From: Candidatus Pacearchaeota archaeon | GTDB lineage: Archaea; Nanobdellota; Nanobdellia; Pacearchaeales; GW2011-AR1 | Direction of reading: 5' to 3' | Length of the DNA stretch: 64,000 nucleotides | NCBI GenBank assembly: GCA_026414385.1 | Contig: JAOAJC010000001.1 | Span: forward strand, 2,384-66,383 | Shown: positions 5,810 through 59,859 of the stretch, one piece after another | How the letters are laid out: each line of letters begins with the position of its first letter | Position numbering within the stretch: position 1 is the stretch's first letter | Program-made: the position numbers and the translations under genes | Notes under the pieces: model-generated | The model's database searches: none | What the model was told of the DNA's origin: nothing | What the model saw: only the letters and a program-made list of their open reading frames with translations

Positions 5810-5848
5810 GGGAAAAAATAGATTTTTCGATATTTAAATTAAATGATT

Positions 5849-30625: not shown

Positions 30626-30687
30626 AATGTGAAAATTTCTTAAGCCATATTGATTAAATTTAATAAGATTGAAAAATAAATATAATT

Positions 30688-30849
30688 ATGAAAAAAGAGG
30701 ACATTAATTTAATTGCCAGAGTATTGACGGACATGAAAGATTCTTTAACTGAAATTGAAAATGCGTTGAAAAATAAAGACATTGGAAAATTAAATGAAGC
30801 AAAATCAAAGATTTTGAGGTTGCAAATAGAGATAGATAAAAGAATATGA
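30688..30849 (+). CDS. Small coiled-coil ORF (53 aa) between the ATPase and the membrane platform gene
   Basis: MKKEDINLIARVLTDMKDSLTEIENALKNKDIGKLNEAKSKILRLQIEIDKRI, with a stop codon overlapping the next ATG (ATGA). Below the ORF-track size cutoff. Confidence 0.3.
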   Translation: MKKEDINLIARVLTDMKDSLTEIENALKNKDIGKLNEAKSKILRLQIEIDKRI

Positions 30850-32138: not shown

Positions 32139-32986
32139 TGAAAATAAATAGAACAAAATTGCTTGGAATTATAGCAGGAATAATTGTGATAGTTGTTGAT
32201 TTAATATTTTTCTTTGGTGAAAAAGCATTTATGTTTATCATCGGCATAGCAATTGTTGTAGCATTAACACCTTTTATAATTGAAATAGTAAGGGAGGGAA
32301 AAAGGGCAGAGGATATCGAAGAGAAATTTCTTGAATTTTCAAGAAATCTTGCAGAAAGCGTAATGACTGGAACTCCGATAAGTAAAAGTATTGTGAATAT
32401 ATCAAAAAAGAATTATGGTGCTTTGACTCCCCACGTGCAGAAATTATCAAATCAAATTCAATTAGGAATACCATTAAGTAAGGCATTGCAAATATTTGCA
32501 AATGATATTGATAATGTTGTTATAACTAGAGCAATAGCACTAATAAGTGAGGCTGAAAAAGCTGGTGGAGAAATTGATTATATTCTCGATTCTGTTGCTA
32601 AATCAATTGCAGAAACAGAAAAACTAAAAAAAGAAAGAAAATCTGCAATATTTAATCTTGTAATGCAAGGATATATTATATTCTTTATATTTATAGGAAT
32701 AATGCTCGTAATGGAGTTTAAAATATTGCCACTTGCGACAGGAATTGGTGGGGGGGGCATTTCTGGAGTAGAAATTGGTGGAATGATACCTGTTGGAGGA
32801 CAAACAATGAATCCTGAAGAGATATCAAATTTATTCTTATACTTGCTTTTAACACAAGGATTTTTTGCAGGATTGACTATTGGAAAATTGAGCGAGGGTT
32901 CTATAAAAGCTGGGATTAAACACTCGTTTATACTTGTTATTGCAGCATTTTTAATATCAACGGGAGTAAGAGCTTTGTTTGTTTAA
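32138..32986 (+). CDS. Pilus assembly membrane protein, FlaJ/TadC-like, C-terminal half (second T2SS-F domain)
   Basis: TAATG overlap with the upstream half. TM, then T2SSF-like IEEKFLEFSRNLAESVMTGTPISKSI...LISEAEKAGGEIDYILDSVA, then TMs. Confidence 0.65.
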   Translation: MKINRTKLLGIIAGIIVIVVDLIFFFGEKAFMFIIGIAIVVALTPFIIEIVREGKRAEDIEEKFLEFSRNLAESVMTGTPISKSIVNISKKNYGALTPHVQKLSNQIQLGIPLSKALQIFANDIDNVVITRAIALISEAEKAGGEIDYILDSVAKSIAETEKLKKERKSAIFNLVMQGYIIFFIFIGIMLVMEFKILPLATGIGGGGISGVEIGGMIPVGGQTMNPEEISNLFLYLLLTQGFFAGLTIGKLSEGSIKAGIKHSFILVIAAFLISTGVRALFV

Positions 32987-33046: not shown

Positions 33047-33745
33047 ATGAAAAAGAGAGGGGCGAGCAATATAGAGTTTATACTTGCATTTGTATTGTTT
33101 GTCGGATTTGTAGCAACGATTTTTTATTTTTTTAATCCTATTAGAAATGTTAATTATATGGAATCATCTTTAAACTATGTTATTGGAGCGATAGAGAAAA
33201 ATGTAACTAGTGAGATTGATGAAGTTGGGATATTAATTAAAGGTTCAAGTTCGGGGGGCAATATTGCAAAGGTTAAGATAAAAGACATTTCAAATGATAA
33301 AAAAGTTGATGCAAGAGATTATTATGGATTTCGATTTGATGCAAAAAGAAATGGTGAAGAAGTTTATATTGATTTAAAAAATAGAGGAACAAATAACAAT
33401 TTTATAATATTTAGGTTTAATGAGGAATTTAATGAGGAAACAATTTCTAGTGGCCAAGAAAGAGAATATACAATATCAACAAAAGATTCAAGAAAAATTG
33501 TTTCTGAAAAAAAAATAAAGCAATTAAGCGAGAGATACGCAAATAATTATTTAAAATTGAAAGAAGAACTAAAAATTCCTGCGAACATTGATTTTTCATT
33601 TTCGTTAGAATTGCAAGACAGAAAAATAGAAGTAACAAAAGATATTCCTGCAAGAGCAGAAGTATTTGCAAAGGGAAAATTAATTGAAGTATTAAAAGAA
33701 AATGAGGTGACTGAAACCGGATATTTAACAATAAGAATATGGTAA
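33047..33745 (+). CDS. Pilin-like/minor pilin protein (class III signal, Glu+5)
   Basis: MKKRGASNIEFILAFVLFVGFVATIFYFF. If cleaved after RG, Glu is at +5. Confidence 0.5.
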   Translation: MKKRGASNIEFILAFVLFVGFVATIFYFFNPIRNVNYMESSLNYVIGAIEKNVTSEIDEVGILIKGSSSGGNIAKVKIKDISNDKKVDARDYYGFRFDAKRNGEEVYIDLKNRGTNNNFIIFRFNEEFNEETISSGQEREYTISTKDSRKIVSEKKIKQLSERYANNYLKLKEELKIPANIDFSFSLELQDRKIEVTKDIPARAEVFAKGKLIEVLKENEVTETGYLTIRIW

Positions 33746-34167
33746 ATAAAAAAGGAATAGTTAGAATAATTGAAGCCAGTGTTGCAATATTAATTATATT
33801 GTCTGTAGTATTAGTGGTTTCTGAAAGAAAAAAATTGCAAATTGAGAGCGATTTAAGTGAGAGAATAACTCCATTGTTAGAAGAAATAGCAAAAAATGGG
33901 AGTATGAGAGAAGCGATAATAAGAGATAATGAAACGAATAATGATGCTGAAAATCTTGTTATGGATTTTTTGAAACAAAGAATAAAAGAGACATTTATAG
34001 GTTATAATGTAACAATATGTAACTATACTCTTGTTTGTGGATTAAGAACATATCCAACAGAAGCAAAAGGCAACATTTATTCTGGAGAGAGAGTGATTAG
34101 CACAACATTAGAAAATAGACAGTTCAATCCAAAAAAAATAAAGATTTTCTTATGGATTAAAAGATAA
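33739..34167 (+). CDS. Pilin-like protein (class III signal)
   Basis: MVNKKGIVRIIEASVAILIILSVVLVV. Confidence 0.45.
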   Translation: MVNKKGIVRIIEASVAILIILSVVLVVSERKKLQIESDLSERITPLLEEIAKNGSMREAIIRDNETNNDAENLVMDFLKQRIKETFIGYNVTICNYTLVCGLRTYPTEAKGNIYSGERVISTTLENRQFNPKKIKIFLWIKR

Positions 34168-34299
34168 AACTGGTTTGCAATAGATTAAATTAAAAAATTT
34201 TGCATAAAATAGAATAACTTAAATCTTATGTTTGGGCGCGCATTTGTATAGATTAAGGAGTACAGGTAATTTTATAAACTCCATTTCTTTAAAAAAGAT

Positions 34300-35907
34300 A
34301 TGAAAAGAGAGGTTTTTTTTATCGGATTTGTAATATTTATAATAACGTTTGCAAGCGCTATTTGCAATGATGAGAATCAGGTTATTTTAAGATTATACAG
34401 AGAGAATAACTCTCATGCGGCAATATGGTCAAATACAACTTATAGCGAAAAAGTGTGTTTTAATGATATTTTTGGACTAAATTATTCAGGAACAAATCCA
34501 CACGATTGTAATAGTGATAATAGTAATGTTGTTTTAAAGCTAAATCAAGAGTTTAATGCGCATGCTGCACTGCCAACTCTTCCAGATAGTGTTGTTGGAT
34601 TCCCAATAAAAGTTTGTTATAAGGGAGTAAAAAAATGTGAATTGTTTGATAATGATAATTGCAGAGCAAATCAGAAAGCAATTCTTTATTTTAATAGCGT
34701 GATTAACTCTCATCTTTCAAAAAATTATGGAGGGGATTTTACAAAAACATTGTGTTGTTATAGATATGATGCGATAATTCATCCGGAATGGTGTTTTGCA
34801 AATAACATTAGCAGTTGTGATAGATATAATAGTCAAACTAATTGCACTCAAGATTTATGTAATGCCTCATTAGTAGATCCAAATTGTCCTCTCGGAGCAA
34901 CTTGTAATTGTGCTTGGGAAAATAATCAATGCAAATTAAAAGTAATAACCACTCCTCCAGCCCCGCCATTTTGTTCTACTATAAATTCATGTGGAGATTA
35001 TAAAGAACAAAGTAAATGTTCTGAAGATATGTGTAACGTTTCTGGGACAGGATATAAGTGTGAGTGGAATATCGCAGATGGAAAGTGTGAGAAAGTTCAA
35101 ATCCCTGGATGGTGTTCTGTAATTAGTAGTTGTAGTAATTATACAACGCAAGCAAATTGTAGCGCGAATCCTTGTTTGGAGGGAAAAGCATGTTATTGGA
35201 ATAATAGTGTTTGTAAAGATTATAAAGCAGATGATAAATGTAGAATAAATAATATAACGAAATGTGCAAATTATGTGGACAAAGATCCGTGTAATGATGA
35301 TGCTTGTAATGTATCTATAATTGGTTGTTCTCCTAATCAGTTATGTTGGTGTGCTTGGGAAAATAATAAGTGTGAGAAAAGAGAAAAAGATAGAGAAGAA
35401 AAAAGAGATTTTTGCGATTATATAGATTCTTGTAGTGATTATGATACTTCAAATAAGTGCGAAAATGATAATTGTGGAATTGCAGATTATGATGAGAATT
35501 GTCCTATTGGTAGAGATTGTTCGTGTAAGTGGATAAGTAATGTTGGTTGTGGAGTATCATTTGAGAGTGGGGGAGGGAGTGGTGGCAGGATGCCTCCTGG
35601 TTCAGGTGGGTGGGGCAATCCAGGTTGCAAATATAATTGTACAATTAATACAAAACAAGGAGAGTGTAAAGAAGGATTTATGGATGTGATAGTAAATGCA
35701 GAAACTAGGATAATACAAGGATGTACAGGAGCAACAGGAAGTCCACTAGATTGTCAAACTAAAACAATAAAGGGAGTTCCGTGTGCATTAGCAGAAACAG
35801 AATTGCCTTTTTTTGAATTTTGGCAAATCCTCATTTCTATTGTGGGGATTGTATTTGTCTATTTGTTTTTATTAAAAAATTGGGAAAAAATAAAAAAGCA
35901 TATATAA
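34300..35907 (+). CDS. Secreted Cys-rich repeat protein (five ~40-aa C-x-x-Y/x-x-x-x-C-x-x-D-x-C-N-x-S...C-x-W-x-N-x-x-C modules) with C-terminal TM anchor
   Basis: Signal peptide. Repeats CDRYNSQTNCTQDLCNAS...CNCAWENNQCKLK, CGDYKEQSKCSEDMCNVS...CEWNIADGKCEKV, CSNYTTQANCSANPC...CYWNNSVCKDY, CANYVDKDPCNDDACNVS...CWCAWENNKCEKR, CSDYDTSNKCENDNCG...CSCKWISNVGCG. Many N-x-S/T sequons. Gly-rich linker and TM at the end. Confidence 0.6.
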   Translation: MKREVFFIGFVIFIITFASAICNDENQVILRLYRENNSHAAIWSNTTYSEKVCFNDIFGLNYSGTNPHDCNSDNSNVVLKLNQEFNAHAALPTLPDSVVGFPIKVCYKGVKKCELFDNDNCRANQKAILYFNSVINSHLSKNYGGDFTKTLCCYRYDAIIHPEWCFANNISSCDRYNSQTNCTQDLCNASLVDPNCPLGATCNCAWENNQCKLKVITTPPAPPFCSTINSCGDYKEQSKCSEDMCNVSGTGYKCEWNIADGKCEKVQIPGWCSVISSCSNYTTQANCSANPCLEGKACYWNNSVCKDYKADDKCRINNITKCANYVDKDPCNDDACNVSIIGCSPNQLCWCAWENNKCEKREKDREEKRDFCDYIDSCSDYDTSNKCENDNCGIADYDENCPIGRDCSCKWISNVGCGVSFESGGGSGGRMPPGSGGWGNPGCKYNCTINTKQGECKEGFMDVIVNAETRIIQGCTGATGSPLDCQTKTIKGVPCALAETELPFFEFWQILISIVGIVFVYLFLLKNWEKIKKHI

Positions 35908-35949
35908 AGGAATCAGTAATTTTTTAAACATAATTTTATTAATAAAATA

Positions 35950-38649
35950 ATGAATAAAAAAAGAGTGAGCGTTGTTTTTTGTTTTATATTCTTATTAGTT
36001 ATTATTAGTTTTGTTTCTGCATCTTTTAGTTTTAAAAATGAAAATTTGCAAAGAACATATGTTGGTGGAGAGATGATTAAGGGATTTATAAACATAAGTT
36101 TCTCAAATGAGAATGCACATAGTTTATTAACTAGTAATTTTAATGGAACAATAACATTAATTGAATTATTGAAAAAAAATAACTTTATCGAAAATAATGA
36201 TTACATATGTTCTAGAAAAAAATGCGAAATTGATTATAAAGCAGACGAAGAAATAAACAGTTTAAATTTAAATGATGATGATAGTAAAATAATTGGCTTT
36301 AAATTAACTGGAAATAATGTAGAAATAAGTTCGTTAAAATTATCTTTGGCAACAAATGCAGATGCTTCGTGCGAGAGAGAAATTTTGATAGATGTTCTTG
36401 ATAGAAACGAGAGTTTTATACAGAGCACAAAAAAAACAAAGGATATTTGTGAAGAAGAGTATTTTGGTTGTTTTGACGAAAACGAAGATACAAGTTATGT
36501 AATTATATCAGAATCAGGATATTGTGAAAAGATTGAATTGCCGCCAGCACCTGCATATATGATAGGAGCAAAAGTAAAAAATGGAACAGCGACAGCAAAA
36601 TTAACAATGAAATTATATGATGGTTCATGGAATGAGTTGGGTGAATGTGAATTACCAAAAAACTCACAAAATATTGAAAAACTGACATGCCAAGTTAATT
36701 ATTCAAATAAAGAAAAGAAAGAATTTATGATTTGCATTTCTTCTTCATCAGAAGACGCAGAATATCAGATAAGGAGTGAAGAATCTAGAGAAACATGCGG
36801 AACGGATAATATGGGTAGCTCTTATAATATTGATTTTGAGATATTTGCAAAAAAAGTTAAATTTGCTCCGATAGGGATATTATCAATAAATGAGACGACT
36901 TTTTCAGAACAAAATGATGGAAATAACTTAAATGATTATATAGATAGTTATATAGAAGAAAAATATGAAAGAAATTGTTCAAATGGGTGCATAATTCCGT
37001 TTAGGATTTATGGGAATAGTCAGACAATTACAAAAGAAAGTGCAACATTAAAATATAGAGAAGGTAGTGGTAGAGTGTTGCGTACGACAGGTGCTATTTA
37101 TTCTATTGAAAAAGAAGATGCAAAAATAACTACAAAAAGAGCATTAAACATAAATATTGAAAAGGCAGGTTTTTTCATACCTCTCTTATCAACAGCAAAA
37201 CAATTATTAATTTATTTGGACAATAAGATGATATTGCCAAAAGCTATTCCGATAAATGTTACAAAAGGATTTGATTTTGATATTTCACCAAAAGAAGTTA
37301 GCATTGGTATAGTAACTTATTTTAATATAATAACAACTGAGAATATAACTTCGTCCAAGTGGAATTTTGGAGATGGAACAATTGAAACATTTGATGGAAA
37401 AGGAGCCGTACATAAATATGTTGGATTACCAATTGGAACAAATGAGTATAGTGTTGAAGTAATCGTAACAAGAAAAGATGGAGTAATATCAAAAAAAATA
37501 TTTAAAATAGGGATTGAGCCATTGTCAGAAAGCGCAAAAACCTTGCTTAATATATCAAATTCAAAAATAACAAAATTAAACTCAAAAATAAACTCTTATC
37601 CTGAGTGGATTGGAGATTTAATAAAAACAAAATTGAATTTTGATAATATGAATTCTGTTATTACGAAAGGAAAAATTGCTATTTTGAATGCTTCAACTAA
37701 TGATGATTATATGGCAATAATAAATCAAATGTTAGGATTAGAAATTCCCGATGAAATAATTTCAAAAGAGATTGGAAAGGATATTAATCCTGTTGTTGGA
37801 TTTGAAAAAATAGAAACGTCTGCCATTGAACAGATATCAAATAAAAAGGTAAGCTCAGATAAAAAAGCAGAACTAAAAGAAGCGATTATTAAATGGATGG
37901 CGAGAAATGCAAACATGAAATTAGAGTATGAAAAGATATTTCAGATAGATGAAAATGGGGAAAAAATTTTACTTAGTAAATTGGTGATAGATGTTAATCC
38001 AAAAGAAAAAGCTTATTTGATAATAAATTATCCACTCAACAGCATAAAATTCAATGGAAATTATTCTGAAAGTGCAATTGGTTCTTTTAGTTATATCCCT
38101 ATAAAAGAACCAAAAATAATAGAATTTGCAATTATGGATAATGTTAATGTTGGGGATTTAGGTATTTATCTATCGCCAACAATTGATAAAGTTTATGTAC
38201 AAGCAGAAGTTGTTAAGGAAGAATTTAATTGGAGTAGATTTATAACGTGGATGATTGTTTTGTTCGTAATTGCTTTTATAATATACATTGTAATGCAAGA
38301 ATGGTACAAAAGATATTACGAAAAATCATTATTTAAAAATAAAGATGACTTGTATAATTTAATTAATTTTATTTATAATGCAAAAAAAGCAGGAATGAAA
38401 GATGAAGAATTAAGAAATAAGTTGAGTGATGCAAAATGGAAAGGCGAACAAATAACATATGCTCTAAGAAAAGCAGAAGGAAAAAGAACTGGGATGTGGG
38501 AAATACCAATATTTAAATATTGGGAACAAATGGAAATAAAAGCAGAGATTGCAAAAAGAGTGGGTGAGCAAAAAACAAGCGCGCAACAACAGTCAAATTC
38601 AAAAATGCATAATATAAAAACTGGGACACAACAAAGTTTATTAAAATAA
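35950..38649 (+). CDS. Large secreted surface protein with a PKD domain and C-terminal TM anchor
   Basis: Signal peptide. PKD motif WNFGDGTIETFDGKGAVHKYVGLPIGTNEYSVEVIVTRKDG. TM FITWMIVLFVIAFIIYIVMQEWY. 899 aa. Confidence 0.6.
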   Translation: MNKKRVSVVFCFIFLLVIISFVSASFSFKNENLQRTYVGGEMIKGFINISFSNENAHSLLTSNFNGTITLIELLKKNNFIENNDYICSRKKCEIDYKADEEINSLNLNDDDSKIIGFKLTGNNVEISSLKLSLATNADASCEREILIDVLDRNESFIQSTKKTKDICEEEYFGCFDENEDTSYVIISESGYCEKIELPPAPAYMIGAKVKNGTATAKLTMKLYDGSWNELGECELPKNSQNIEKLTCQVNYSNKEKKEFMICISSSSEDAEYQIRSEESRETCGTDNMGSSYNIDFEIFAKKVKFAPIGILSINETTFSEQNDGNNLNDYIDSYIEEKYERNCSNGCIIPFRIYGNSQTITKESATLKYREGSGRVLRTTGAIYSIEKEDAKITTKRALNINIEKAGFFIPLLSTAKQLLIYLDNKMILPKAIPINVTKGFDFDISPKEVSIGIVTYFNIITTENITSSKWNFGDGTIETFDGKGAVHKYVGLPIGTNEYSVEVIVTRKDGVISKKIFKIGIEPLSESAKTLLNISNSKITKLNSKINSYPEWIGDLIKTKLNFDNMNSVITKGKIAILNASTNDDYMAIINQMLGLEIPDEIISKEIGKDINPVVGFEKIETSAIEQISNKKVSSDKKAELKEAIIKWMARNANMKLEYEKIFQIDENGEKILLSKLVIDVNPKEKAYLIINYPLNSIKFNGNYSESAIGSFSYIPIKEPKIIEFAIMDNVNVGDLGIYLSPTIDKVYVQAEVVKEEFNWSRFITWMIVLFVIAFIIYIVMQEWYKRYYEKSLFKNKDDLYNLINFIYNAKKAGMKDEELRNKLSDAKWKGEQITYALRKAEGKRTGMWEIPIFKYWEQMEIKAEIAKRVGEQKTSAQQQSNSKMHNIKTGTQQSLLK

Positions 38650-38668: not shown

Positions 38669-39307
38669 ATGTTAAAGATATTAAAAAGTTTTGCGAAGAG
38701 AATTCTGAAAAGCATTTTTAAAAAAAGAGATGAAATAAAAATTGGATTTTATGGGCCACCAAATGCTGGTAAGACATCTATTGCAAACAAAATATGTAAA
38801 GATTGGACTGGAGAGGAAATAGGGAAAGTTAGTAAAATACCTCATGAGACAAGAAAAGTGCAATTCAAAGAGAAAGTTGAAATTGAACACAAAGGGAAAA
38901 AACTAACATTTAAAATAGCAGATACTCCAGGAATTGCCACAAGAATTGATTATGAAGATTTTTTAAAACATGGGTTAAATAAAGGGATTGCAAAAAAAAG
39001 AGCAAAAGAAGCTACGCAGGGAGTTATAGAATCAATAAAATGGCTTGATGATATGGATGCTGTTATTGCTGTTTTAGACGCAAGTGAGAATCCATATTCG
39101 CAAGTAAATGTTACAATATTAGGAAACATTGCTGCGAGAAACATTCCTGTTCTTGTTGTAGCAAATAAGATTGATTTAAAAAAAGCAGACATTAATCAAA
39201 TAAAAGCAGCTTTTCCAGATTATGAAGTTATTGGAATAAGCGCAAAAGAGGGAACAAATTTTGACGAATTTTATGAATCGTTATTTAAATTAGCAAAGCA
39301 GATTTAA
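38669..39307 (+). CDS. Small GTP-binding protein (P-loop GTPase)
   Basis: G1 GPPNAGKTS, G3 DTPG, G4 ANKID, G5 SAK. Confidence 0.75.
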   Translation: MLKILKSFAKRILKSIFKKRDEIKIGFYGPPNAGKTSIANKICKDWTGEEIGKVSKIPHETRKVQFKEKVEIEHKGKKLTFKIADTPGIATRIDYEDFLKHGLNKGIAKKRAKEATQGVIESIKWLDDMDAVIAVLDASENPYSQVNVTILGNIAARNIPVLVVANKIDLKKADINQIKAAFPDYEVIGISAKEGTNFDEFYESLFKLAKQI

Positions 39308-39313
39308 GATAAA

Positions 39314-39706
39314 ATGGTAAAAGAAAAAAAAATAAAAGGATTGAGTTTGCAACTAATTCCATTTTCAGAGCTAAGCGGGCTTGGAATATCAGAAAGAGTA
39401 AAAAAAGTGTTGTCTTTGGTATTAGATAATAAAATAGCCATAATCCAGGGGAGATTAAGGGCTGAAGAAGAAGCAAGATTAATTGAGGATACAATGGTTT
39501 TAGTGGATAGAGTAAAAAATTTTAAAGGTATAGAGTTGGCTGTGATTGAACCTGACTTAAAAGATGCTGGAATTTTTATGAAAGCTAAGCAGGCAATTGC
39601 AAATTCTCTAACTGGCAATAACAACGCCCTAACAGTCGTCGGTCCAGCTTCAATAATAAAAGAAATAAAAAGAAATCCAAAGAAGATTGAACTGATGCTA
39701 AAATAA
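39314..39706 (+). CDS. Archaeal conserved protein, DUF2073-like
   Basis: 130 aa. It is the conserved downstream partner of this GTPase in archaeal genomes (recalled from memory, not searched). Confidence 0.4.
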   Translation: MVKEKKIKGLSLQLIPFSELSGLGISERVKKVLSLVLDNKIAIIQGRLRAEEEARLIEDTMVLVDRVKNFKGIELAVIEPDLKDAGIFMKAKQAIANSLTGNNNALTVVGPASIIKEIKRNPKKIELMLK

Positions 39707-39727
39707 ATAAAACTTTATTAATCCATA

Positions 39728-40123
39728 TTGCTGATTTTTTGTATGCCATATAGGTGCGTACATTGTTCGGTAGTTTATGAAGATAGTGCAGAAGAACTAA
39801 TGCGTGGTTGCTCTAATTGTAAAAGCAAGTTCTTTTTTTATATAAAACCAGAGAAATTAAAGGAAATTGCAGAAAATGAGAGAGAAGAGAATTTTACAAA
39901 AGAAGAAAAAGAAAAAATGGAAAAAGATATAAGAGAGATTGTTGGGATAACTAATGAAGAAAAGCCAGTATTTTTAGATTTTGAAAGTATAAAAGTAATA
40001 AGACATGGAAAATATCTTATTGACTTACCAAAATTATTTGATTTAAAAAAACCAAGAGTTTATAGTTTAGAAGATGGAAAGTATATTATTGATTTAAACG
40101 TTCTAATGAAACCATCAAAATAA
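39728..40123 (+). CDS. Zn-ribbon-containing protein (DUF2072-like)
   Basis: CVHCSVVYED...CSNCKSKFFF ribbon at the N-terminus followed by an acidic coiled region. Third member of the conserved triad. Confidence 0.4.
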   Translation: MLIFCMPYRCVHCSVVYEDSAEELMRGCSNCKSKFFFYIKPEKLKEIAENEREENFTKEEKEKMEKDIREIVGITNEEKPVFLDFESIKVIRHGKYLIDLPKLFDLKKPRVYSLEDGKYIIDLNVLMKPSK

Positions 40124-49087: not shown

Positions 49088-49558
49088 TTATTTACACTCA
49101 ATTGGTTGTGAAATTATTGCTTTTTCACATACTATTGCTTTATTATTAATAACATCAATTGGCACGATTTCTAAATTATATGAACCCGGGGGGAAATTTC
49201 TTGTAGGAATTTTAAATGGGCGCGAATATGTATTACCTGGACTTAATCCTACAGAACTACCTTCATAGAAATATTGGTTTGCCTCATTTAAAGTTGTTTT
49301 TGATGTTGAATTTCCGATTCTTATATATGCTCCTTTTACTTTAAACAATCCCTTATTTGTCAAAGATAAATGCAATATCCCTTTTTGGATGTCACATACA
49401 TAATTGTTAAGAATTAAATTTATTTCTTCTTGGCAAGAGGGTTGTGATTTTGGGAGATAAACTTTTATGTATGCATAAACCATAACAGACATTACAACAG
49501 CGATTACAATTAATAATACATAACTTATCATTTCGCTGATTGCTTTTTTGTTTTGCAT
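49088..49558 (-). CDS. Pilin-like protein (class III signal-like N-terminus)
   Basis: MQNKKAISEMISYVLLIVIAVVMSVMVYAYI. Confidence 0.4.
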   Translation of the reverse strand: MQNKKAISEMISYVLLIVIAVVMSVMVYAYIKVYLPKSQPSCQEEINLILNNYVCDIQKGILHLSLTNKGLFKVKGAYIRIGNSTSKTTLNEANQYFYEGSSVGLSPGNTYSRPFKIPTRNFPPGSYNLEIVPIDVINNKAIVCEKAIISQPIECK

Positions 49559-49559
49559 T

Positions 49560-50087
49560 TTATTTGATTGCTACAATCTCCTCTTCCCTTACTTTCTTTT
49601 TTAAAATAACATAAAAATTCTGCCCTTCAGTGATATTAAAATCAAAAGAAATATCATCAGAAAGTTTTACTTTTATTTTTTTATCTTGTTGAGGAATTTG
49701 GACTTGTGTTCTGCTGTATTTTTTTGTTGATGTTGAGATAGTGCTACCAGGAATTCCAACGCTACCGGTTTCTGTTGCGGTATAATTAATAAGATATAAA
49801 TTATTTATATCTCCATAAACAACAATAAAATCTGCTTCAGGATTTAATGTCGAGTAATTTGATAGAAGTTGAGTGATGCGAGTATCTATTTCTTGTTTAT
49901 TATTAGCATTGAATATTCCATTATCTATAACTTGGTTGGATTCTATTTTTATTTCTTCTGATAAATCATAGATTGCAGTTTCTGGAATTTTTTCAGTTGT
50001 TTTTTCGATATAAACTGCACTAATAGTTATAATAATAAGCGAGATTATTATTGCAGCCATAAGAAAAAATTGTCCTCTTTTATCCAT
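49560..50087 (-). CDS. Archaeal pilin-like protein (KRGQ class III signal)
   Basis: MDKRGQFFLMAAIIISLIIITISAVYI. Confidence 0.55.
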   Translation of the reverse strand: MDKRGQFFLMAAIIISLIIITISAVYIEKTTEKIPETAIYDLSEEIKIESNQVIDNGIFNANNKQEIDTRITQLLSNYSTLNPEADFIVVYGDINNLYLINYTATETGSVGIPGSTISTSTKKYSRTQVQIPQQDKKIKVKLSDDISFDFNITEGQNFYVILKKKVREEEIVAIK

Positions 50088-50111: not shown

Positions 50112-50570
50112 TTATTTATTTTGATTTGTAATTTCTTCTGGCGTGGCTTCATAATCGTTTTTATGAATAGCGGATTTAGAAAGAATTGTCCTTCCATGAT
50201 AAATTATGAGTAAATCTTCGTTTTCTGATGTCGGAGTTTGAAGAATTTCTATTAGTTGATAGATTCTTGAACGATTGACAAAATATCTACCTTTTGCAGT
50301 TTTATTGCGAAGACAATATTCGAGTGTTGGTAGTTCTCTGTCTCCTAAATGTTCCCACAAATTTAGGGTTGTCTCGTTACCAGAACTTAAATCTCTTATT
50401 GATAGATTATCATCAATATCAAAATTATTGAATAGCGGTTCTTTGATTATTTCATAATTAAAATAAAAAATTTTGCCGTTGATTTCTTTTAGATGGGCGA
50501 AACGCCTACCTTCAAGCGATTTTTTTCTTGCAATATAATCTTGAACTGAATCTCTATCTCGTTTTATCAT
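50112..50570 (-). CDS. Hypothetical protein
   Basis: 152 aa ORF with no recognisable motif. Co-directional with the pilin pair. Confidence 0.35.
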   Translation of the reverse strand: MIKRDRDSVQDYIARKKSLEGRRFAHLKEINGKIFYFNYEIIKEPLFNNFDIDDNLSIRDLSSGNETTLNLWEHLGDRELPTLEYCLRNKTAKGRYFVNRSRIYQLIEILQTPTSENEDLLIIYHGRTILSKSAIHKNDYEATPEEITNQNK

Positions 50571-50574
50571 TAAA

Positions 50575-50845
50575 GGTGTAGGCAGGGAGTTTGCTCAAAA
50601 AACCCATTGCAGAACCCTCTTGCCTTTCTCAGTTTTGCAACCCTGAAAGCATCTTGTTTCCTGATTAGGGCTGCTCCGATCAAGGCCTGACCCGATTCAC
50701 AGGAGCAAGATCGAACAGGACAAAACATCAACGTCCGGCAAAAGACTGCAAAGAGTCTTTCTCACTCGCTCCTTTAAGCTTGCCATGAAGCCCGCTTGCA
50801 TGACGGCGCAGGGCTAGCGCGCCAGCTTGCCTACATCATAAAGAA
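50575..50845 (-). ncRNA. ffs: Probable signal recognition particle RNA (7S/SRP RNA)
   Basis: A ~270-nt GC-rich island in an AT-rich genome with no ORF. The minus-strand reading contains GGUCAGG-CC-uugauc-GG-AGCAGCC (forward coordinates 50668..50693). This is the conserved SRP RNA helix-8 pattern (GGUCAGG...AGCAGCC flanking a short stem-loop). Confidence 0.5.
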
Positions 50846-50917
50846 TAAATAATCCTTTATAAACATAATGAAAATGTTCTTTAAAATTTAATAAATTTTT
50901 AATTAAATAGTTGAAAG

Positions 50918-53176: not shown

Positions 53177-53320
53177 TTTTCCTCTTTTGATTTAGAATTT
53201 TATATCTTATGATATATAAATATTTTGATGGTAAAAAAATTTATGTTAGTTATCTTTGATTCACTCTTGTCTTAAAGCTTCTCGCTTACGCTGCGAGCTT
53301 TAATCCTGCGGTGAACAAAG

Positions 53321-53394
53321 AGCCTCTGAGGAGATTTGAACTCCCGACCCCGAGTTTACGAAACTCGTGCTCTAACCAGCTGAGCTACAGAGGC
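53321..53394 (-). tRNA. tRNA-Thr (anticodon CGU)
   Basis: Minus strand reads GCCUCUG UAGCUCAGCUGGUUAGAGCA CGAGU UUCGUAA ACUCG GGGUC GGGAGUUCAAAUCUCCU CAGAGGC U. It has a 7-bp acceptor stem, D-arm, CGU anticodon, T-arm GGGAG/UUCAAAU/CUCCU. No encoded CCA. Confidence 0.85.
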
Positions 53395-56688: not shown

Positions 56689-57027
56689 ATGAAAAATTTG
56701 GAACAATTGTCTGATTTTGATTTGGGTGGCTATAAATTTTGGTATATATTAGAGGAATTAAGAAAAGACTATAGCAGATTTGTGCATGATGATTTTCCAG
56801 ATGAAGTAATTGCAGGGGCGATTCAAGGGATTAAGAATATAAGAGAGGTTTCTAAACAAGTAAGAAGTTTAGAACAAAATTCAAGAGAAGAAGCAGAAAG
56901 ATTTAAACAACAAATTTTATTAGAACATTGTGGATATATTTATTTGATACATCTTATAATAGGAAGGGAAAGAGATTTTAAATTTTCTGAGATATATAAT
57001 TCTATTAAAAATAAAGATATTAATTAG
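56689..57027 (+). CDS. Hypothetical protein
   Basis: 112 aa ORF, no motif recognised. Confidence 0.3.
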   Translation: MKNLEQLSDFDLGGYKFWYILEELRKDYSRFVHDDFPDEVIAGAIQGIKNIREVSKQVRSLEQNSREEAERFKQQILLEHCGYIYLIHLIIGRERDFKFSEIYNSIKNKDIN

Positions 57028-57086
57028 AGAGAGTGCGCTAAAAAGTTTGAGCAAAAAGAAAAAAAGAAAAATAAAAATTATGCAGA

Positions 57087-57206
57087 TTATTCTGAATCTG
57101 CTGATTCTGCAGTTAATTCAGTATTTTCTGTTTGAGTTTCTTCTGTCTTAACTGGAGAAACTTTTTCAGTTGTCTTTTCTGATTTTTTTGGCCTTCCTCT
57201 TGGCAT
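57087..57206 (-). CDS. Tiny ORF (39 aa) with an N-terminal AT-hook-like motif
   Basis: MPRGRPKKSEKTTEKVSPVKTEETQTENTELTAESADSE, found by hand translation. RGRP core then an acidic tail. Confidence 0.25.
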   Translation of the reverse strand: MPRGRPKKSEKTTEKVSPVKTEETQTENTELTAESADSE

Positions 57207-57686
57207 ATTATTAACCTCCTCTAATAAAAAAATTAAATTAAAAGAGTATTTAATTATTGAGAAAGGCTTTTAAACTATCTAAGTAGTGCCATAATAGTGA
57301 TAAATTTATTTAAATTTTTATTAATCCGAACTTTAATTATATGCTGAAACTTTTTATTTTTGATTAAAACTTACTGCATTTGATAATAAGTTCGTGTTAA
57401 TTAAAAGATTAATTTTAAAAAGGCTCAGAAATTTAAGGTAAGATGTCATATGTTATGCCTGGAATGTTTCCAGTTGGGCAGATATGGAGTGTTTCAAAAT
57501 TGTACCTAAGATGGGCATCTTATTTAGCCAGTGCTGTCAAAAATAAGATAATTAAGAATATTGTTAATAAAGAGATTATTTTTAATGTTTTAAATTAGTC
57601 AAAAACCAGAGTTTTTTTTGATTTTTTAGCTGTTTTTGGCTTCGTTTAATGTATCTTGTGCGAACAATAGGCACAAGATTAAGGGT

Positions 57687-57908
57687 TTAAGGCGCAAATG
57701 CTCTATAACCCGGGGAATTATCGAAATCTTGATACAATTTTACAAATTCTTGACGCATTTTTGAGATTATTTGCTCTCTTGACTCTTTTGAATTATCAAA
57801 TCCTGCAAGCGATAGTAAAATGGCTTGTGCAAATAATGTTGCTATAAATAACCCGTTTCCCTTTTCAACATATTCTTCTTCTTCTGTTTTTTGTTCTAGA
57901 TTTTCCAT
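57687..57908 (-). CDS. Hypothetical small protein
   Basis: 73 aa ORF with a hydrophobic core segment. Confidence 0.3.
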   Translation of the reverse strand: MENLEQKTEEEEYVEKGNGLFIATLFAQAILLSLAGFDNSKESREQIISKMRQEFVKLYQDFDNSPGYRAFAP

Positions 57909-58002
57909 GATTTTTTGATGCTTTCTTAGTATTTATAGTTTGCTATTTTATAAAAATCATTAGCTATAAGTTTTTGGAAATAATTGAAAGTTTTCGCTAT
58001 TT

Positions 58003-58146
58003 TTATAGATAGATATTAATTATTTGTAAAATTCCGTAAATTATTAAGTAAAATCCTAGTATCCATCTAACTAATCTTGGAAATAAGAGGACTAAGATTC
58101 CCAATAATATTGCGAGAATTGCAATAATTGTTAAGGATATTGCCAT
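58003..58146 (-). CDS. Tiny hydrophobic membrane protein (47 aa)
   Basis: Hand translation gives MAISLTIIAILAILLGILVLLFPRLVRWILGFYLIIYGILQIINIYL. Confidence 0.3.
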   Translation of the reverse strand: MAISLTIIAILAILLGILVLLFPRLVRWILGFYLIIYGILQIINIYL

Positions 58147-58173
58147 TTTGAAATTACCTCCTTTCAATTGTTA

Positions 58174-58422
58174 TTAATCTTGTAAGAGTTTTGAGGTGAA
58201 AAAGATAAAAATCACTCCAAAAATAGTTATTGAAATTGCAGTATATGTTTCGGTAAGATAGTGCTCTGGGTGAATGTTTATTAGTTTTAGTGTTAAATCT
58301 TGAAATAAGTTAAAAATTGCATTGCGCCAGGCCCAGGCAATAGTGAAACCGACAGCTGCGACTATTGCAAGCCGAATTTGTCGTTTAAATTCTAATTTGA
58401 AAGTTCTTTTTACATTAAACAT
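58174..58422 (-). CDS. Small membrane protein (82 aa)
   Basis: Two TM segments (LAIVAAVGFTIAWAW; AISITIFGVIFIFF). Confidence 0.35.
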   Translation of the reverse strand: MFNVKRTFKLEFKRQIRLAIVAAVGFTIAWAWRNAIFNLFQDLTLKLINIHPEHYLTETYTAISITIFGVIFIFFTSKLLQD

Positions 58423-58502
58423 GGTTTTCCCTAAATAAAAGACTGGAAAACAAAACCAGTTCTTTTATAATAAAACAAATAAAAAATCAAAAGTTTTTAA
58501 GT

Positions 58503-58679
58503 TTATTTCCTCTTTTTGACTGGGGCTTGATAGTTTCTAACAAGCTTACCGATACCTATAACTAATACTGCCAATGGGATAAGCCATTTTGAGAGTGCGT
58601 CTAACTGAGAGACTCCAAGCAAAGGCAGGACAAGTAAGACACCGATAAGAGTTACAAGCCATGCTGTTAATTTGGCCAT
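58503..58679 (-). CDS. Tiny hydrophobic membrane protein (58 aa)
   Basis: Hand translation gives MAKLTAWLVTLIGVLLVLPLLGVSQLDALSKWLIPLAVLVIGIGKLVRNYQAPVKKRK. Confidence 0.3.
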   Translation of the reverse strand: MAKLTAWLVTLIGVLLVLPLLGVSQLDALSKWLIPLAVLVIGIGKLVRNYQAPVKKRK

Positions 58680-58835
58680 TTTTACCTCCTTTTTAATTTA
58701 GTTTGTGATTTTATTAAAAATTATAGGAATTTGGAGTTTATAAGCTTTTCTTTTTTTATTTTTGGTTAAATTTAATGGCCGGGTGCGTTCGGCGCTTCGC
58801 GCCTCACATATTATTGAGGTTGTATTTTTTTAATT

Positions 58836-58925
58836 ATTCCACTTTTTTGGAATTTTGATAAGATTTTTTTTAAAATTCCATTATTTATGTGTAATAATTA
58901 ATATGGAATTTTTTAAAAATTCCAT
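58836..58925. promoter_or_regulatory. Cluster of TGGAAT/ATTCCA dyad elements (three inverted-repeat sites, one a perfect 23-nt palindrome)
   Basis: ATTCCA-cttttt-TGGAAT (58836..58853). TGGAATTTT-N15-AAAATTCCA (58848..58880). ATGGAATTTTT-T-AAAAATTCCAT (58903..58925, perfect). Confidence 0.4.
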
Positions 58926-59038
58926 ATGCAATAAAGGGGTGCTAAAAGTTGTTGTTTTTTATTAAAAATTTAAGCAAAAATTGTTAAAATATTGGCATTT
59001 TTTGTAAAAATTTTATATTTTTTAAGTGTTTTTTGGTG

Positions 59039-59056
59039 TTTAAACAGCTGTTTAAA
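59039..59056. promoter_or_regulatory. 18-bp perfect palindrome TTTAAACAGCTGTTTAAA flanked by TGGTGTTTAAA direct repeats
   Basis: Direct repeats at 59034..59044 and 59068..59078. Lies in a 510-nt intergenic region upstream of the wHTH gene at 59194. Confidence 0.4.
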
Positions 59057-59193
59057 ATTTAAATAATGGTGTTTAAAGTTTATTTTTTGGGTTTTTGCTT
59101 GTTTGTTTTTTGTTTGTTGTGTAACTTTTAAGTTGTGGTTTTTAAGGCTTAAAAAAACGAAATATTTATAAATTAGAGTTTTTTGAATATATT

Positions 59194-59859
59194 ATGTTTG
59201 ATTGGATATTTGGAAAGAGGTGGAAGAGGGTTGAGGAAGAAACAAAAAAAGGATTTAATGCAGTGAGAGAAGATATTGAAGCAATAGGAAAGTGGATAAA
59301 ACATCTTGATGGGGAAGATAAACAGCTGTTTATGATTATTTCTGAATTAAAAAATGAAATAAACGCGTTAAAAAGCGAATTATTAGAGTTAAAGAATGGA
59401 TTAGAGGTTGCTGAAGAAAGTCAAAAAATTGTGCCAAAATTTAAAAAATTGCCAGTTGTTGGTAAACAAACAGGTGTTGAGGTTGTTCAAAAAGTTGTTC
59501 AAACACCTGTTCAAACAGGCAATTTTTATGATATTTTTAAAAGTTTGAGTGCTAATGAGAGATTAATTGTTTTTACATTAATGAATAGTGAGCTAAAATT
59601 AAGTTATGAGGATTTGGCTTTGCTGTTAGGGAAAGAGAGAGCAACTATAAGAGGGCAGATAAATGCAATAAAACAGAAAAGTGAGGGTTTAATTGAGGAG
59701 ATAATTGAAAAAAATGGGAAAAAAAGAGTGTTTATTCCAGATGAAATAAAGGTAAAATTAGCAAAATATGCAAAAGTGAGAGTTAAGAGTGAGAAAAAAA
59801 TGTTAGAAAATGAGAATTTCAGTGAAAAAAGTGAAGGAGAGCAAAAAAATGAGAGTTAG
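59194..59859 (+). CDS. Coiled-coil plus C-terminal winged-helix (MarR-like) protein
   Basis: N-terminal heptad-rich region (ELKNEINALKSELLELKNGLE), Q/V/T-rich linker, and wHTH ERLIVFTLMNSELKLSYEDLALLLGKERATIRGQINAIKQKSEGLIEEI. Confidence 0.5.
   Translation: MFDWIFGKRWKRVEEETKKGFNAVREDIEAIGKWIKHLDGEDKQLFMIISELKNEINALKSELLELKNGLEVAEESQKIVPKFKKLPVVGKQTGVEVVQKVVQTPVQTGNFYDIFKSLSANERLIVFTLMNSELKLSYEDLALLLGKERATIRGQINAIKQKSEGLIEEIIEKNGKKRVFIPDEIKVKLAKYAKVRVKSEKKMLENENFSEKSEGEQKNES

What the first reader, a model, noticed from the sequence alone, without database searches (positions are those of the whole stretch)
50575..50845. GC-rich island likely encoding SRP RNA
GC jumps to ~55% over ~270 nt with no ORF. 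The minus strand contains GGUCAGG-CC-UUGAUC-GG-AGCAGCC, which reproduces both conserved strands of the SRP RNA helix-8 internal loop. The apical loop is 6 nt instead of the usual GNRA tetraloop. If this is SRP RNA, the hexaloop would be unusual at the SRP54-binding site. Exact 5' and 3' ends are uncertain.
Basis: partly seen in the sequence, partly recalled or inferred. Interest (0 to 1): 0.5.

Follow-up and report, generated by a model that had tools for sequence, protein, structure and literature searches.

The report
Archaeal SRP RNA lacking helix 6
The GC-rich island is the gene for the signal recognition particle RNA of a small-genome (DPANN-type) archaeon; it is a stripped-down version that lacks one standard arm (helix 6) and carries a conserved six-base loop where nearly all known SRP RNAs have a four-base GNRA loop.

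Summary
The observation and the interpretation both hold. Window 50575-50837 (minus strand) is an SRP RNA gene of about 260 nt. It is 52% GC in a 30% GC archaeal genome. It passes Rfam's gathering score only for the bacterial large SRP model (71.4 bits against 60). Its best bit score is to Archaea_SRP (88 bits, below the 96.5 cutoff), because the roughly 40-nt helix 6 is missing.

I recovered more than 130 homologues from Woesearchaeota, Pacearchaeota and Nanoarchaeota MAGs and from metagenomes. Twelve full-length sequences give 48 of 87 base pairs with compensatory changes. Helix 5 runs straight into helix 8. The Alu domain, the 5e motif and both SRP54-binding loops are intact.

The apical loop is real and clade-wide. 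A loop-agnostic scan gave YUGAYY in 120 of 120 hits (UUGAUC in 106), never GNRA and never closed by a Watson-Crick pair. URRC and URRU loops are already known in bacteria. A 2010 review reports helix 6, a GRRA loop and SRP19 in every archaeal group then known.

The likely mechanism is a two-component SRP (SRP54 plus RNA). Loss of SRP19 is inferred, not shown. Most relatives fall below every Rfam SRP threshold. Verdict: a known RNA class, and an apparently undescribed archaeal variant of moderate interest.

The parts
50575..50837 (-). SRP RNA gene (7S-like, about 260 nt). The likely transcript runs from about 50834-50837 to about 50573-50577.
   Evidence: Rfam Archaea_SRP matches 50837..50575 at 88 bits. 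Bacteria_large_SRP matches 50834..50578 at 71.4 bits, above its gathering score of 60. Eleven relatives of 260-267 nt align end to end.
50856..50863 (-). Putative archaeal TATA box, TTTATAAA, starting 29 nt upstream of the G of GUAGGC.
   Evidence: Read directly from the sequence. Relatives carry TTAAATA, TTATATA or TTAAAAA at the same distance upstream of GUAGAC (alignment). Promoter function is inferred.
50776..50835 (-). Alu (small) domain. It comprises the helix 1 5' strand (50829-50835), helix 2 (50824-50828 / 50776-50780), helix 3 (50818-50823 / 50805-50810) and helix 4 (50798-50800 / 50781-50783). Loop 3 to loop 4 tertiary pairs join AGCCC (50811-50815) to GGGCU (50789-50793).
   Evidence: In one search, helix 2 has 4 of 5 covarying pairs, helix 3 has 3 of 6, and the loop-loop pairs have 2 of 5, with 100% of cells paired.
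50577..50583 (-). Helix 1 3' strand (GCCUACA), which pairs with the 5' end.
   Evidence: 7 pairs, 97.6% of cells paired, 2 pairs with compensatory changes.
50707..50772 (-). Helix 5, 5' strand.
   Evidence: There is extensive covariation; for example, alignment columns 98-105/218-226 have 7 of 8 pairs covarying.
50586..50655 (-). Helix 5, 3' strand.
50718..50721 (-). 5e motif, 5' strand (GUCC).
   Evidence: Four base pairs are interrupted by a 3-nt loop and include two symmetric G-C pairs, which is the definition in PMC2905702. The pairs at columns 121-205, 122-204, 123-200 and 124-199 are invariant or covary.
50637..50643 (-). 5e motif, 3' strand (GG-GUU-GC, with the 3-nt loop).
50656..50706 (-). 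Helix 8 (S domain), joined directly to helix 5 with no helix 6 and no three-way junction.
   Evidence: The Archaea_SRP alignment deletes the 40-nt helix 6 block, shown as [40]->[0]. The continuous helix at columns 123-142/179-200 has 13 of 18 covarying pairs.
50686..50689 (-). Symmetric loop, 5' strand (CAGG), part of the SRP54 M-domain binding site.
   Evidence: Invariant in all 12 aligned sequences. Matches the consensus of both Rfam models.
50672..50675 (-). Symmetric loop, 3' strand (AGCA).
   Evidence: Invariant. Matches the Rfam consensus.
50694..50699 (-). Asymmetric loop, 5' strand (UGAAUC).
   Evidence: GAA is conserved.
50664..50667 (-). Asymmetric loop, 3' strand (UAAU).
   Evidence: UAA is invariant.
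50678..50683 (-). Apical hexaloop UUGAUC, closed by CC/GG (50684-50685 / 50676-50677). It replaces the GNRA tetraloop.
   Evidence: The loop is identical in 17 genome hits. It accounts for 106 of 120 hits in the loop-agnostic metagenome scan, and the other 14 are also YUGAYY.

Best explanation
This is the functional SRP RNA gene of an AT-rich DPANN archaeon of the Woesearchaeota/Pacearchaeota/'Nanoarchaeota' type.

The gene has its own TATA-box promoter. The RNA of about 260 nt folds into a single long rod. The 5' and 3' ends pair as helix 1. An Alu domain follows, made of helices 2-4 locked by loop-loop pairs. A long helix 5 carries the 5e hinge motif. The S domain consists of helix 8 alone.

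The invariant symmetric (CAGG/AGCA) and asymmetric (UGAAUC/UAAU) loops of helix 8 bind the M domain of SRP54. Helix 6, the SRP19-binding arm found in all archaeal SRP RNAs described up to 2010, is absent. The architecture is therefore that of the Bacillus-type large bacterial SRP RNA, although the sequence is closer to the archaeal model.

The GNRA tetraloop is replaced by a clade-invariant YUGAYY hexaloop: a URRY-type core flanked by a pyrimidine-pyrimidine mismatch. I infer three further points. The particle is a two-component SRP (SRP54 plus RNA) without SRP19. The hexaloop takes over the GNRA role of contacting FtsY during early SRP-receptor assembly. With no helix 6 to clamp, the loop was free to change.

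What is shown: identity as SRP RNA, the fold, the absence of helix 6, and conservation of the loop. What is inferred: SRP54 binding, the FtsY contact, loss of SRP19, and the exact transcript ends.
For: Rfam. Hits span the full length of both SRP models. No other RNA family competes.

Context. The surrounding genes are archaeal: FttA/aCPSF1, proteasome alpha and beta, Rad50/Mre11, exosome Rrp4/41/42, SBDS, PCNA and SecY.

Homologues. The exact helix 8 motif occurs in 14 Woesearchaeota, Pacearchaeota and Nanoarchaeota MAGs.

Structure. Twelve full-length sequences sharing 64-73% identity with the window support the fold. 94.6% of cells are paired and 48 of 87 pairs show double changes. None of 500 shuffles reaches this, and slid controls give at most 20 pairs. 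RNAalifold finds 43 of 81 pairs compensatory.

Helix 6. The helix 6 block is deleted in the model alignment. It is present in Methanomassiliicoccales controls of about 310 nt scoring 146-158 bits. It is also deleted in Nanohaloarchaea L110 and L095 and in archaeon L001.

Constraint. Four close relatives have no substitution in the 29-nt helix 8 core, and most of their stem changes keep the pairing.

Synteny. The order Zn-ribbon protein, ArgRS, SRP RNA, pilin-like genes, Mre11 is conserved.

Literature. URRC and URRU loops function in bacterial SRP RNAs (PMC4091067). SRP19 is dispensable in Haloferax (PMC2905702). Closed nanohaloarchaeal genomes list Ffh, FtsY and the SRP RNA but no SRP19 (PMC10266531).
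Against: The Archaea_SRP score is below Rfam's gathering threshold (88 against 96.5).

Loss of SRP19 is untested at genome scale. The local search covers only the window and the SRP-RNA neighbourhoods of relatives. The supplement search is inconclusive because FtsY is also missing from those tables.

Only 64 kb of this genome is visible, so a second, canonical SRP RNA elsewhere cannot be formally excluded.

No expression data are available, and the transcript ends are predicted only from homology and the TATA position.

Methanomassiliicoccales keep helix 6 yet carry a C(UGAC)G loop. The change of loop is therefore not strictly tied to the loss of helix 6.
Confidence: 0.9

Rival explanations
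1. It is a canonical archaeal 7S SRP RNA that has helix 6, and the covariance-model alignment merely failed to place the helix.
For: Archaea_SRP gives the best bit score. As of 2010, all archaeal SRP RNAs were reported to have helix 6 (PMC2905702).
Against: The RNA is about 260 nt rather than about 310 nt. The 5' strand of helix 5 runs into helix 8 with no spare nucleotides. That junction helix is supported by 13 of 18 covarying pairs. Control archaea run through the same pipeline show helix 6 clearly.
Confidence: 0.02
2. It is a bacterial large (Bacillus-type) SRP RNA, either because the contig is bacterial or because the gene was acquired horizontally from bacteria.
For: Bacteria_large_SRP is the only Rfam family whose gathering score is passed. 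The architecture is identical to that family: an Alu domain and no helix 6.
Against: All informative neighbouring genes are archaeal. The archaeal model scores 17 bits higher despite the penalty for deleting helix 6. The apical stem has the archaeal-type GGCC/GGAG sequence, and the 5e motif is present. The gene sits in a conserved syntenic position across many DPANN contigs and has an archaeal TATA box upstream.
Confidence: 0.04
3. It is a decaying or non-functional SRP RNA relic, and the odd loop and missing helix reflect degeneration.
For: The gene scores below the archaeal gathering threshold. The GNRA loop and the UGUNR motif are missing.
Against: Strong purifying selection is evident. The SRP54-binding loops are invariant, and the hexaloop is fixed in more than 120 divergent sequences. 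Compensatory changes are pervasive. Close relatives have no changes in the helix 8 core. SRP RNA is essential in all cells studied, which is established knowledge.
Confidence: 0.02

Closest known systems
Archaeal 7S SRP RNA (Rfam RF01857; for example Methanocaldococcus jannaschii, PDB 1LNG and 2V3C)
   Same: The host is archaeal. Helix 1 is formed by the 5' and 3' ends. The Alu helices 2-4 have loop-loop tertiary pairs. The 5e motif is present. Helix 8 has the same symmetric and asymmetric loops and the archaeal GGCC/GGAG apical stem. Of all Rfam models, this one gives the best bit score.
   Different: There is no helix 6, so the site for SRP19 and the partner for the helix 6-helix 8 'adenosine clamp' are both missing. 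A YUGAYY hexaloop replaces the GRRA tetraloop. The RNA is about 50 nt shorter. It scores below the family's gathering threshold. UGUNR is degenerate (CGUCA).
Bacterial large SRP RNA (Rfam RF01854; Bacillus subtilis scRNA type)
   Same: The overall architecture is the same: Alu domain, helix 5 and helix 8 without helix 6. The length is similar (the model has 256 positions). The gathering score is passed.
   Different: The host and the promoter are archaeal. The sequence is closer to the archaeal model. The apical loop is not GNRA. Bacterial partner proteins such as HBsu are not expected; that last point rests on my own knowledge.
Bacterial SRP RNAs with URRC or URRU apical loops (reported in PMC4091067).
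   Same: The loop core is the same U-R-A-Y (UGAU, UGAC or UAAC) at the same position. Some bacteria carry the identical UUGAUC (L020, L043, L108) or UUGAUU (A. laidlawii L068).
   Different: Those are bacterial RNAs. Many have a Watson-Crick or G.U closing pair, as in C(UGAC)G. In the DPANN clade the flanking pair is always pyrimidine-pyrimidine.
Plastid SRP RNAs with enlarged atypical apical loops (PMC4091067)
   Same: The GNRA loop is replaced by a longer loop, while the SRP54-binding loops are kept.
   Different: Plastid loops vary widely in length and sequence (1-11 nt), which suggests relaxed constraint. The DPANN hexaloop is almost invariant, which suggests a retained specific function.

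Membership tests
SRP RNA clan (Rfam CL00003) | A significant full-length covariance-model match to an SRP RNA family | tested here: met
   RF01854 scores 71.4 bits against a gathering score of 60, covering model positions 1-256. RF01857 scores 88 bits with E = 3.3e-20, covering model positions 1-317.
SRP RNA clan (Rfam CL00003) | Helix 8 with the conserved symmetric (AGG/AGCA-type) and asymmetric loops that bind the SRP54/Ffh M domain | tested here: met
   GGGU-CAGG-CC...GG-AGCA-GCCC-UAA is invariant in 12 of 12 aligned homologues. Close relatives show no substitutions there. Binding of the protein itself is not testable here.
Archaea_SRP (RF01857) | A score at or above Rfam's gathering threshold of 96.5 bits | tested here: not met
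   The score is 88 bits. Most relatives also fail at the gathering threshold.
Archaea_SRP (RF01857) | Helix 6 with a GNAR tetraloop, the SRP19-binding arm | tested here: not met
   The model's 40-nt helix 6 block is deleted. A covariation-supported continuous helix from helix 5 into helix 8 takes its place. Controls with helix 6 are detected normally.
Archaea_SRP (RF01857) | A GRRA (mostly GGAA) tetraloop on helix 8 (PMC2905702) | tested here: not met
   The loop is UUGAUC. It is YUGAYY in 120 of 120 clade members.
Archaea_SRP (RF01857) | An Alu domain with helices 1-4 and a tertiary interaction between loop 3 and loop 4 | tested here: met
   In one search, helices 1-4 are 82-100% paired and covary. 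The loop-loop pairs are 100% paired, and 2 of 5 covary.
Archaea_SRP (RF01857) | [quoted passage not shown] | tested here: met
   GUCC (50718-50721) pairs with GG-GUU-GC (50637-50643). The pairs are invariant or covary. The definition is from PMC2905702.
Archaea_SRP (RF01857) | The UGUNR U-turn motif between helices 3 and 4 | tested here: not met
   The window has CGUCA and the relatives vary. The motif is also absent from several accepted archaeal groups (PMC2905702), so it is not strictly defining.
Archaea_SRP (RF01857) | An archaeal host genome | tested here: met
   FttA, the proteasome, Rad50/Mre11, the exosome, PCNA and SBDS are present. Homologues lie in MAGs titled Woesearchaeota, Pacearchaeota or Nanoarchaeota. 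NCBI places Woesearchaeota in Archaea; Nanobdellati.
Archaeal SRP particle (SRP RNA + SRP54 + SRP19) | An SRP19 gene present in the genome | tested here: inconclusive
   No SRP19 was found in the window or in 1.67 Mb of related loci, using a PDB-verified query. That sample is a small, non-random part of each genome. The literature and supplement searches were inconclusive.
Bacteria_large_SRP (RF01854) | A score at or above the gathering threshold, with the architecture Alu domain + helix 5 + helix 8 and no helix 6 | tested here: met
   The score is 71.4 bits against a threshold of 60. The consensus structure line of the model shows a single unbranched S domain.
Bacteria_large_SRP (RF01854) | A bacterial host or bacterial descent | tested here: not met
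   The gene context and promoter are archaeal, and the archaeal model gives the higher score.

The most novel reading that the evidence does not exclude
Woesearchaeota/Pacearchaeota-type DPANN archaea, and independently or jointly the Nanohaloarchaea, have reduced the archaeal SRP to a bacterial-like two-component particle. Helix 6 is deleted, SRP19 is lost, and the GNRA receptor-tethering loop is replaced by a fixed YUGAYY hexaloop. These would be the first archaea known to lack the SRP19/helix 6 module. They would be a natural experiment on whether that module, essential in eukaryotes, is dispensable. Current Rfam thresholds miss or mislabel most of these genes.
Probability: 0.5. Interest if true: 0.55.

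Novelty: new variant of a known kind. Interest (0 to 1): 0.4.

Why it matters
SRP RNA is universal, and the archaeal particle is described in textbooks as 7S RNA plus SRP54 plus SRP19. A whole, widely distributed archaeal radiation has lost helix 6 and presumably SRP19, and has swapped the GNRA loop for a fixed hexaloop. That loop tethers the receptor in bacteria and is clamped to helix 6 in archaea and eukaryotes.

Three things follow. It gives natural support to the genetic finding that SRP19 is dispensable in archaea. It offers a minimal archaeal SRP for structural and kinetic work on how the RNA loop promotes SRP-FtsY assembly. It also exposes an annotation gap. Of the 11 full-length relatives scanned (15 relative loci in all) only one reached any Rfam gathering score, and that one, like the window itself, was called 'bacterial'. 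SRP RNA is therefore probably under-annotated in DPANN MAGs.

For this window alone, the practical result is a confident annotation of an essential ncRNA gene.

Tried and rejected
1. An exact-sequence lookup of the adjacent ArgRS, meant to find the source contig, found nothing on record.

2. The single-sequence MFE fold (z = -3.2) mis-pairs helix 8. I did not use it for the structure and relied on the comparative fold instead.

3. RNAalifold's nested solution for the Alu domain used the loop-loop pairs in place of helices 3 and 4. I replaced it with a curated structure containing a pseudoknot, which is 100% paired.

4. Literature searches for helix 6 or SRP19 loss in DPANN or nanoarchaea found no relevant statement. 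The held text of the Cavalier-Smith paper is truncated and could not be checked.

5. Supplement searches for the KEGG orthologs of SRP19, SRP54 and FtsY were inconclusive. SRP54 was found and SRP19 was not, but FtsY was also missing.

6. A local SRP19 HMM and phmmer search of the six-frame translations of the window and 239 loci was negative. It says little, because SRP19 need not be linked to the RNA gene.

7. I considered a database-wide SRP19 protein search and did not run it. The output carries no taxonomy, so it could neither prove absence nor tie hits to this clade.

8. I considered RNase P or another structured RNA. No such Rfam hit appeared even at E = 10.

9. I considered a bacterial origin and a pseudogene. 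Both are rejected (see the rival explanations).

10. A repeat scan of the ORF-poor, AT-rich stretch at 57.0-59.2 kb showed only low-complexity matches.

Full report
OBSERVATION

The interval 50575-50845 is 50.9% GC, and the RNA proper (50575-50837) is 52.1% GC. The window as a whole is 30.4% GC (profile). The minus strand contains GGGUCAGG-CC-UUGAUC-GG-AGCAGCCC. The generic helix 8 signature GTCAGG-N10-AGCAGC occurs once in the window, where 0.02 matches are expected by chance. The only ORF listed inside the island is a 53-aa TTG-initiated ORF.

IDENTITY

A scan of the whole window against Rfam 15 at gathering thresholds returned two hits. One is a tRNA-Thr. The other is a full-length match to Bacteria_large_SRP at 50834..50578 on the minus strand (71.4 bits, gathering score 60). 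A permissive scan of the region showed that Archaea_SRP scores higher: 88 bits, E = 3.3e-20, covering 50837..50575. That score is still below the family's own gathering score of 96.5. In the alignment, the model's 40-nt helix 6 block is deleted, shown as [40]->[0]. No other RNA family came close.

HOST

The neighbouring genes are archaeal:
- FttA/aCPSF1, proteasome alpha and beta, and Rad50/Mre11
- exosome Rrp4/41/42, and SBDS
- PCNA and a eukaryotic-type primase
- SecY with a DUF106/YidC-like protein at the end of a ribosomal-protein operon
- OapB/OapC, and a TrmB regulator

No SRP54, FtsY or SRP19 gene was found among the ORFs scanned. The roughly 20 ORFs of the ribosomal-protein cluster (about 7.7-18.4 kb), and several other short ORFs, were not scanned against Pfam, although the six-frame search found no SRP19 anywhere in the window.

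RELATIVES

The identical UCAGGCC-UUGAUC-GGAGCAGC motif was found in 14 MAGs. Most are titled Woesearchaeota, Pacearchaeota or Nanoarchaeota (12 of the 14), and their loci are 27-45% GC. The same motif also occurs in a few bacteria (Acholeplasmataceae, a Mollicutes MAG and a Phycisphaerales MAG).

Related loops turned up elsewhere. C(UGAC)G occurs in Methanomassiliicoccales/Thermoplasmata, Nanohalobium, Bacillota and Planctomycetota. U(UAAC)C and U(UAAC)U occur in Planctomycetota.

Of 15 Woesearchaeota, Pacearchaeota and Nanoarchaeota loci, only one reached any Rfam SRP gathering score, and that was again the bacterial model. Routine annotation would therefore miss or mislabel most of these genes.

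STRUCTURE

Eleven full-length relatives of 260-267 nt share 64-73% identity with the window RNA and align to it end to end. RNAalifold predicts 81 pairs, of which 43 have compensatory double changes.

I curated the structure by restoring Alu helices 2-4 and writing the loop 3-loop 4 pairs as a pseudoknot. On alignment A1 this structure has 94.6% of cells paired and 48 of 87 pairs with changes on both sides. None of 500 shuffles reaches those values. Partner-slid controls give at most 51% paired and at most 20 such pairs.

The 5' strand of helix 5 runs directly into the 5' strand of helix 8. That continuous helix (columns 123-142 with 179-200) has 13 of 18 covarying pairs. There is neither sequence nor a junction available for a helix 6.

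Four features of a canonical archaeal SRP RNA are retained:
- helix 1, formed by the paired 5' and 3' ends
- helices 2-4, with covarying loop-loop pairs AGCCC/GGGCU
- the 5e motif, GUCC with GG-GUU-GC
- both internal loops of helix 8, invariant in all 12 sequences

UGUNR is degenerate.

The same pipeline was run on control archaea. It shows a normal helix 6 in Methanomassiliicoccales/Thermoplasmata (about 310 nt, 146-158 bits). Helix 6 is deleted in two Nanohaloarchaea (L110 at 263 nt and L095 at 272 nt) and in an unclassified archaeon (L001 at 271 nt). Helix 6 loss is therefore not confined to one DPANN lineage.

THE LOOP

My first scan excluded loops that begin with G. I therefore ran a loop-agnostic metagenome scan anchored on the clade-specific junction between helix 5 and helix 8: GATC, then 15-17 nt, then GUCAGGCC, N6 and GGAGCAGCCNUAA.

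| Loop | Hits |
|---|---|
| UUGAUC | 106 |
| UUGACC | 5 |
| UUGAUU | 5 |
| CUGAUC | 2 |
| UUGAAC | 1 |
| CUGACC | 1 |

None is GNRA. The two flanking positions are always pyrimidine-pyrimidine (U.C, U.U or C.C) and never a Watson-Crick or G.U pair. The loop is thus a conserved hexaloop with a URAY core. It is neither a sequencing oddity nor a private mutation.

Published work already notes that bacterial SRP RNAs have a widespread URRC alternative to GNRA, and URRU in more than 10 Bacteroidetes and Firmicutes (PMC4091067). For archaea, the 2010 survey reports only GRRA on helix 8. It reports a GNAR-capped helix 6 (AAAG in Thermoplasmatales) and SRP19 in every group, and states that SRP19 coexists with helix 6 (PMC2905702). 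A 2015 study still used the helix 6 GNAR loop as a minimal search feature (PMC4731332). I found no paper describing an archaeal SRP RNA without helix 6. The library is incomplete, so this is absence of evidence only.

GENE ANATOMY AND CONSTRAINT

A TTTATAAA box lies at 50863-50856, 29 nt upstream of the G of GUAGGC. Relatives have TTAAATA, TTATATA or TTAAAAA at the same distance. That fits an archaeal promoter with a start near 50834-50837.

The 3' strand of helix 1 ends at 50577 and is followed by a short U run.

The gene order is conserved in many relatives: Zn-ribbon protein, ArgRS, SRP RNA, two pilin-like genes, Mre11, Rad50. The closest contig, L219, is 90.8% identical over the RNA. The four closest relatives have no substitution in the 29-nt helix 8 core, and most of their stem substitutions preserve the pairing.

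MECHANISM

The evidence shows a conserved, structurally constrained SRP RNA with a complete Alu domain, the hinge and the SRP54-binding site, but without the SRP19-binding arm or the GNRA loop.

The rest is inferred from established SRP biology. The RNA scaffolds SRP54 through helix 8. The apical loop, which in bacteria transiently tethers FtsY during early complex formation (summarised in PMC4091067), is functionally replaced by the hexaloop. In canonical archaea and eukaryotes that loop is clamped to the helix 6 loop with the help of SRP19. Without helix 6, SRP19 has no binding site and has probably been lost, leaving a two-component, Bacillus-like particle.

Three observations are consistent with this:
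- SRP19 is dispensable in Haloferax (PMC2905702).
- Closed nanohaloarchaeal genomes list Ffh, FtsY and the SRP RNA but no SRP19 (PMC10266531).
- A PDB-verified SRP19 query finds nothing in the window or in 1.67 Mb of related loci. This is a weak test.

The supplement search of a Woesearchaeota pangenome found SRP54 and no SRP19, but it also lacked FtsY, so it is inconclusive. Because Methanomassiliicoccales combine helix 6 with C(UGAC)G, the loop change and the loss of helix 6 are not strictly coupled.

RIVALS

Three alternatives were considered:
- A mis-aligned canonical RNA is excluded by the length and by the covarying junction helix.
- A bacterial origin is contradicted by the gene context, the promoter, the conserved synteny and the higher score of the archaeal model.
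- A decaying relic is contradicted by the invariant binding loops, the fixed hexaloop and the pervasive compensatory changes.

A second, canonical copy elsewhere in the genome cannot be excluded from 64 kb.

VERDICT

The feature is a member of a known RNA class. It represents an apparently undescribed archaeal variant that is helix-6-less and hexaloop-bearing. The variant is widespread in DPANN archaea and is poorly captured by current Rfam thresholds. Interest is moderate. The open point that would raise it is a genome-scale demonstration that SRP19 is absent.

Noticed in passing
window 50112-50570 (-): A 152-aa ORF starts 5 nt after the 3' end of the SRP RNA. It has no Pfam match. It has no homologue in any of the 239 related loci, including the closest relative L219, where the RNA-to-pilin spacer is only about 300 nt. 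It is either a lineage-specific orphan gene or not a gene.
   Followed up: partly
window 49088-50087 (-); relatives L219, L183, L228, L061 and others: Two small genes with N-terminal hydrophobic segments, resembling pilins or archaeal class III signal-peptide proteins, have no Pfam match. They lie immediately downstream of the SRP RNA in 48-66 related contigs. The block Zn-ribbon protein, ArgRS, SRP RNA, pilin-like x2, Mre11, Rad50 is syntenic across the clade.
   Followed up: partly
loci L003, L005, L018, L034, L038, L044, L061, L074, L078, L088, L089, L091, L116: The SRP RNAs of these Woesearchaeota, Pacearchaeota and Nanoarchaeota MAGs fall below the gathering score of every Rfam SRP family. 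The only ones that pass (L070 and the window) are assigned to the bacterial large SRP family. This is an annotation gap for DPANN genomes.
   Followed up: yes
loci L002, L056, L081 (also L050, L052, L063, L092, L105): Methanomassiliicoccales and Thermoplasmata SRP RNAs keep helix 6 but have a C(UGAC)G apical loop on helix 8 instead of GRRA. URRC-type loops therefore also occur in canonical archaeal SRP RNAs, beyond the 2010 generalisation.
   Followed up: partly
loci L110, L095, L001: Nanohaloarchaeal SRP RNAs and one from an unclassified archaeon (263-272 nt) also lack helix 6. Their loops are C(UGGC)G or C(UGAC)G. Helix 6 loss therefore spans more than one DPANN lineage.
   Followed up: partly
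loci L023, L026, L039, L046, L048, L064, L086, L090, L096, L098, L100, L104, L107, L117 (Planctomycetota); L068, L115, L020, L108 (Acholeplasma/Mollicutes): In these bacterial lineages the SRP RNA helix 8 loop is U(UAAC)C or U(UAAC)U (Planctomycetota), or U(UGAU)C, U(UGAU)U or U(UGAG)U (Acholeplasma/Mollicutes). The flanks are again pyrimidine-pyrimidine. The same loop solution as in DPANN archaea has thus arisen convergently.
   Followed up: no
window 53320-53394 (-): tRNA-Thr (anticodon CGU), 67.6 bits in Rfam and also called by ARAGORN.
   Followed up: yes
window 5402-7237 (-): SecY is followed directly by a 135-aa EMC3/TMCO1/YidC-like (DUF106) membrane insertase at the end of the ribosomal-protein operon. 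Both membrane-insertion partners of SRP are therefore encoded about 45 kb from the SRP RNA gene.
   Followed up: no
window 38669-40123 (+): A GTPase gene is followed by OapB and OapC ('origin-associated protein') genes. This cluster might mark a nearby replication origin. No Orc1/Cdc6 was seen in the ORFs scanned.
   Followed up: no
window 57027-59194: An AT-rich stretch of about 2.2 kb contains only two short ORFs (73 and 82 aa). It includes a small palindromic element, TGGAATTTT...AAAATTCCA, repeated around 58848-58925. There was no Rfam hit. It remains unexplained.
   Followed up: partly
window 29102-32986 (+) and 33047-38649 (+): A type IV pilus or archaellum-like assembly ATPase (T2SSE) and two T2SSF platform genes are followed by several unannotated ORFs and an 899-aa protein with a weak PKD match. 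This is probably a DPANN surface-appendage locus.
   Followed up: no
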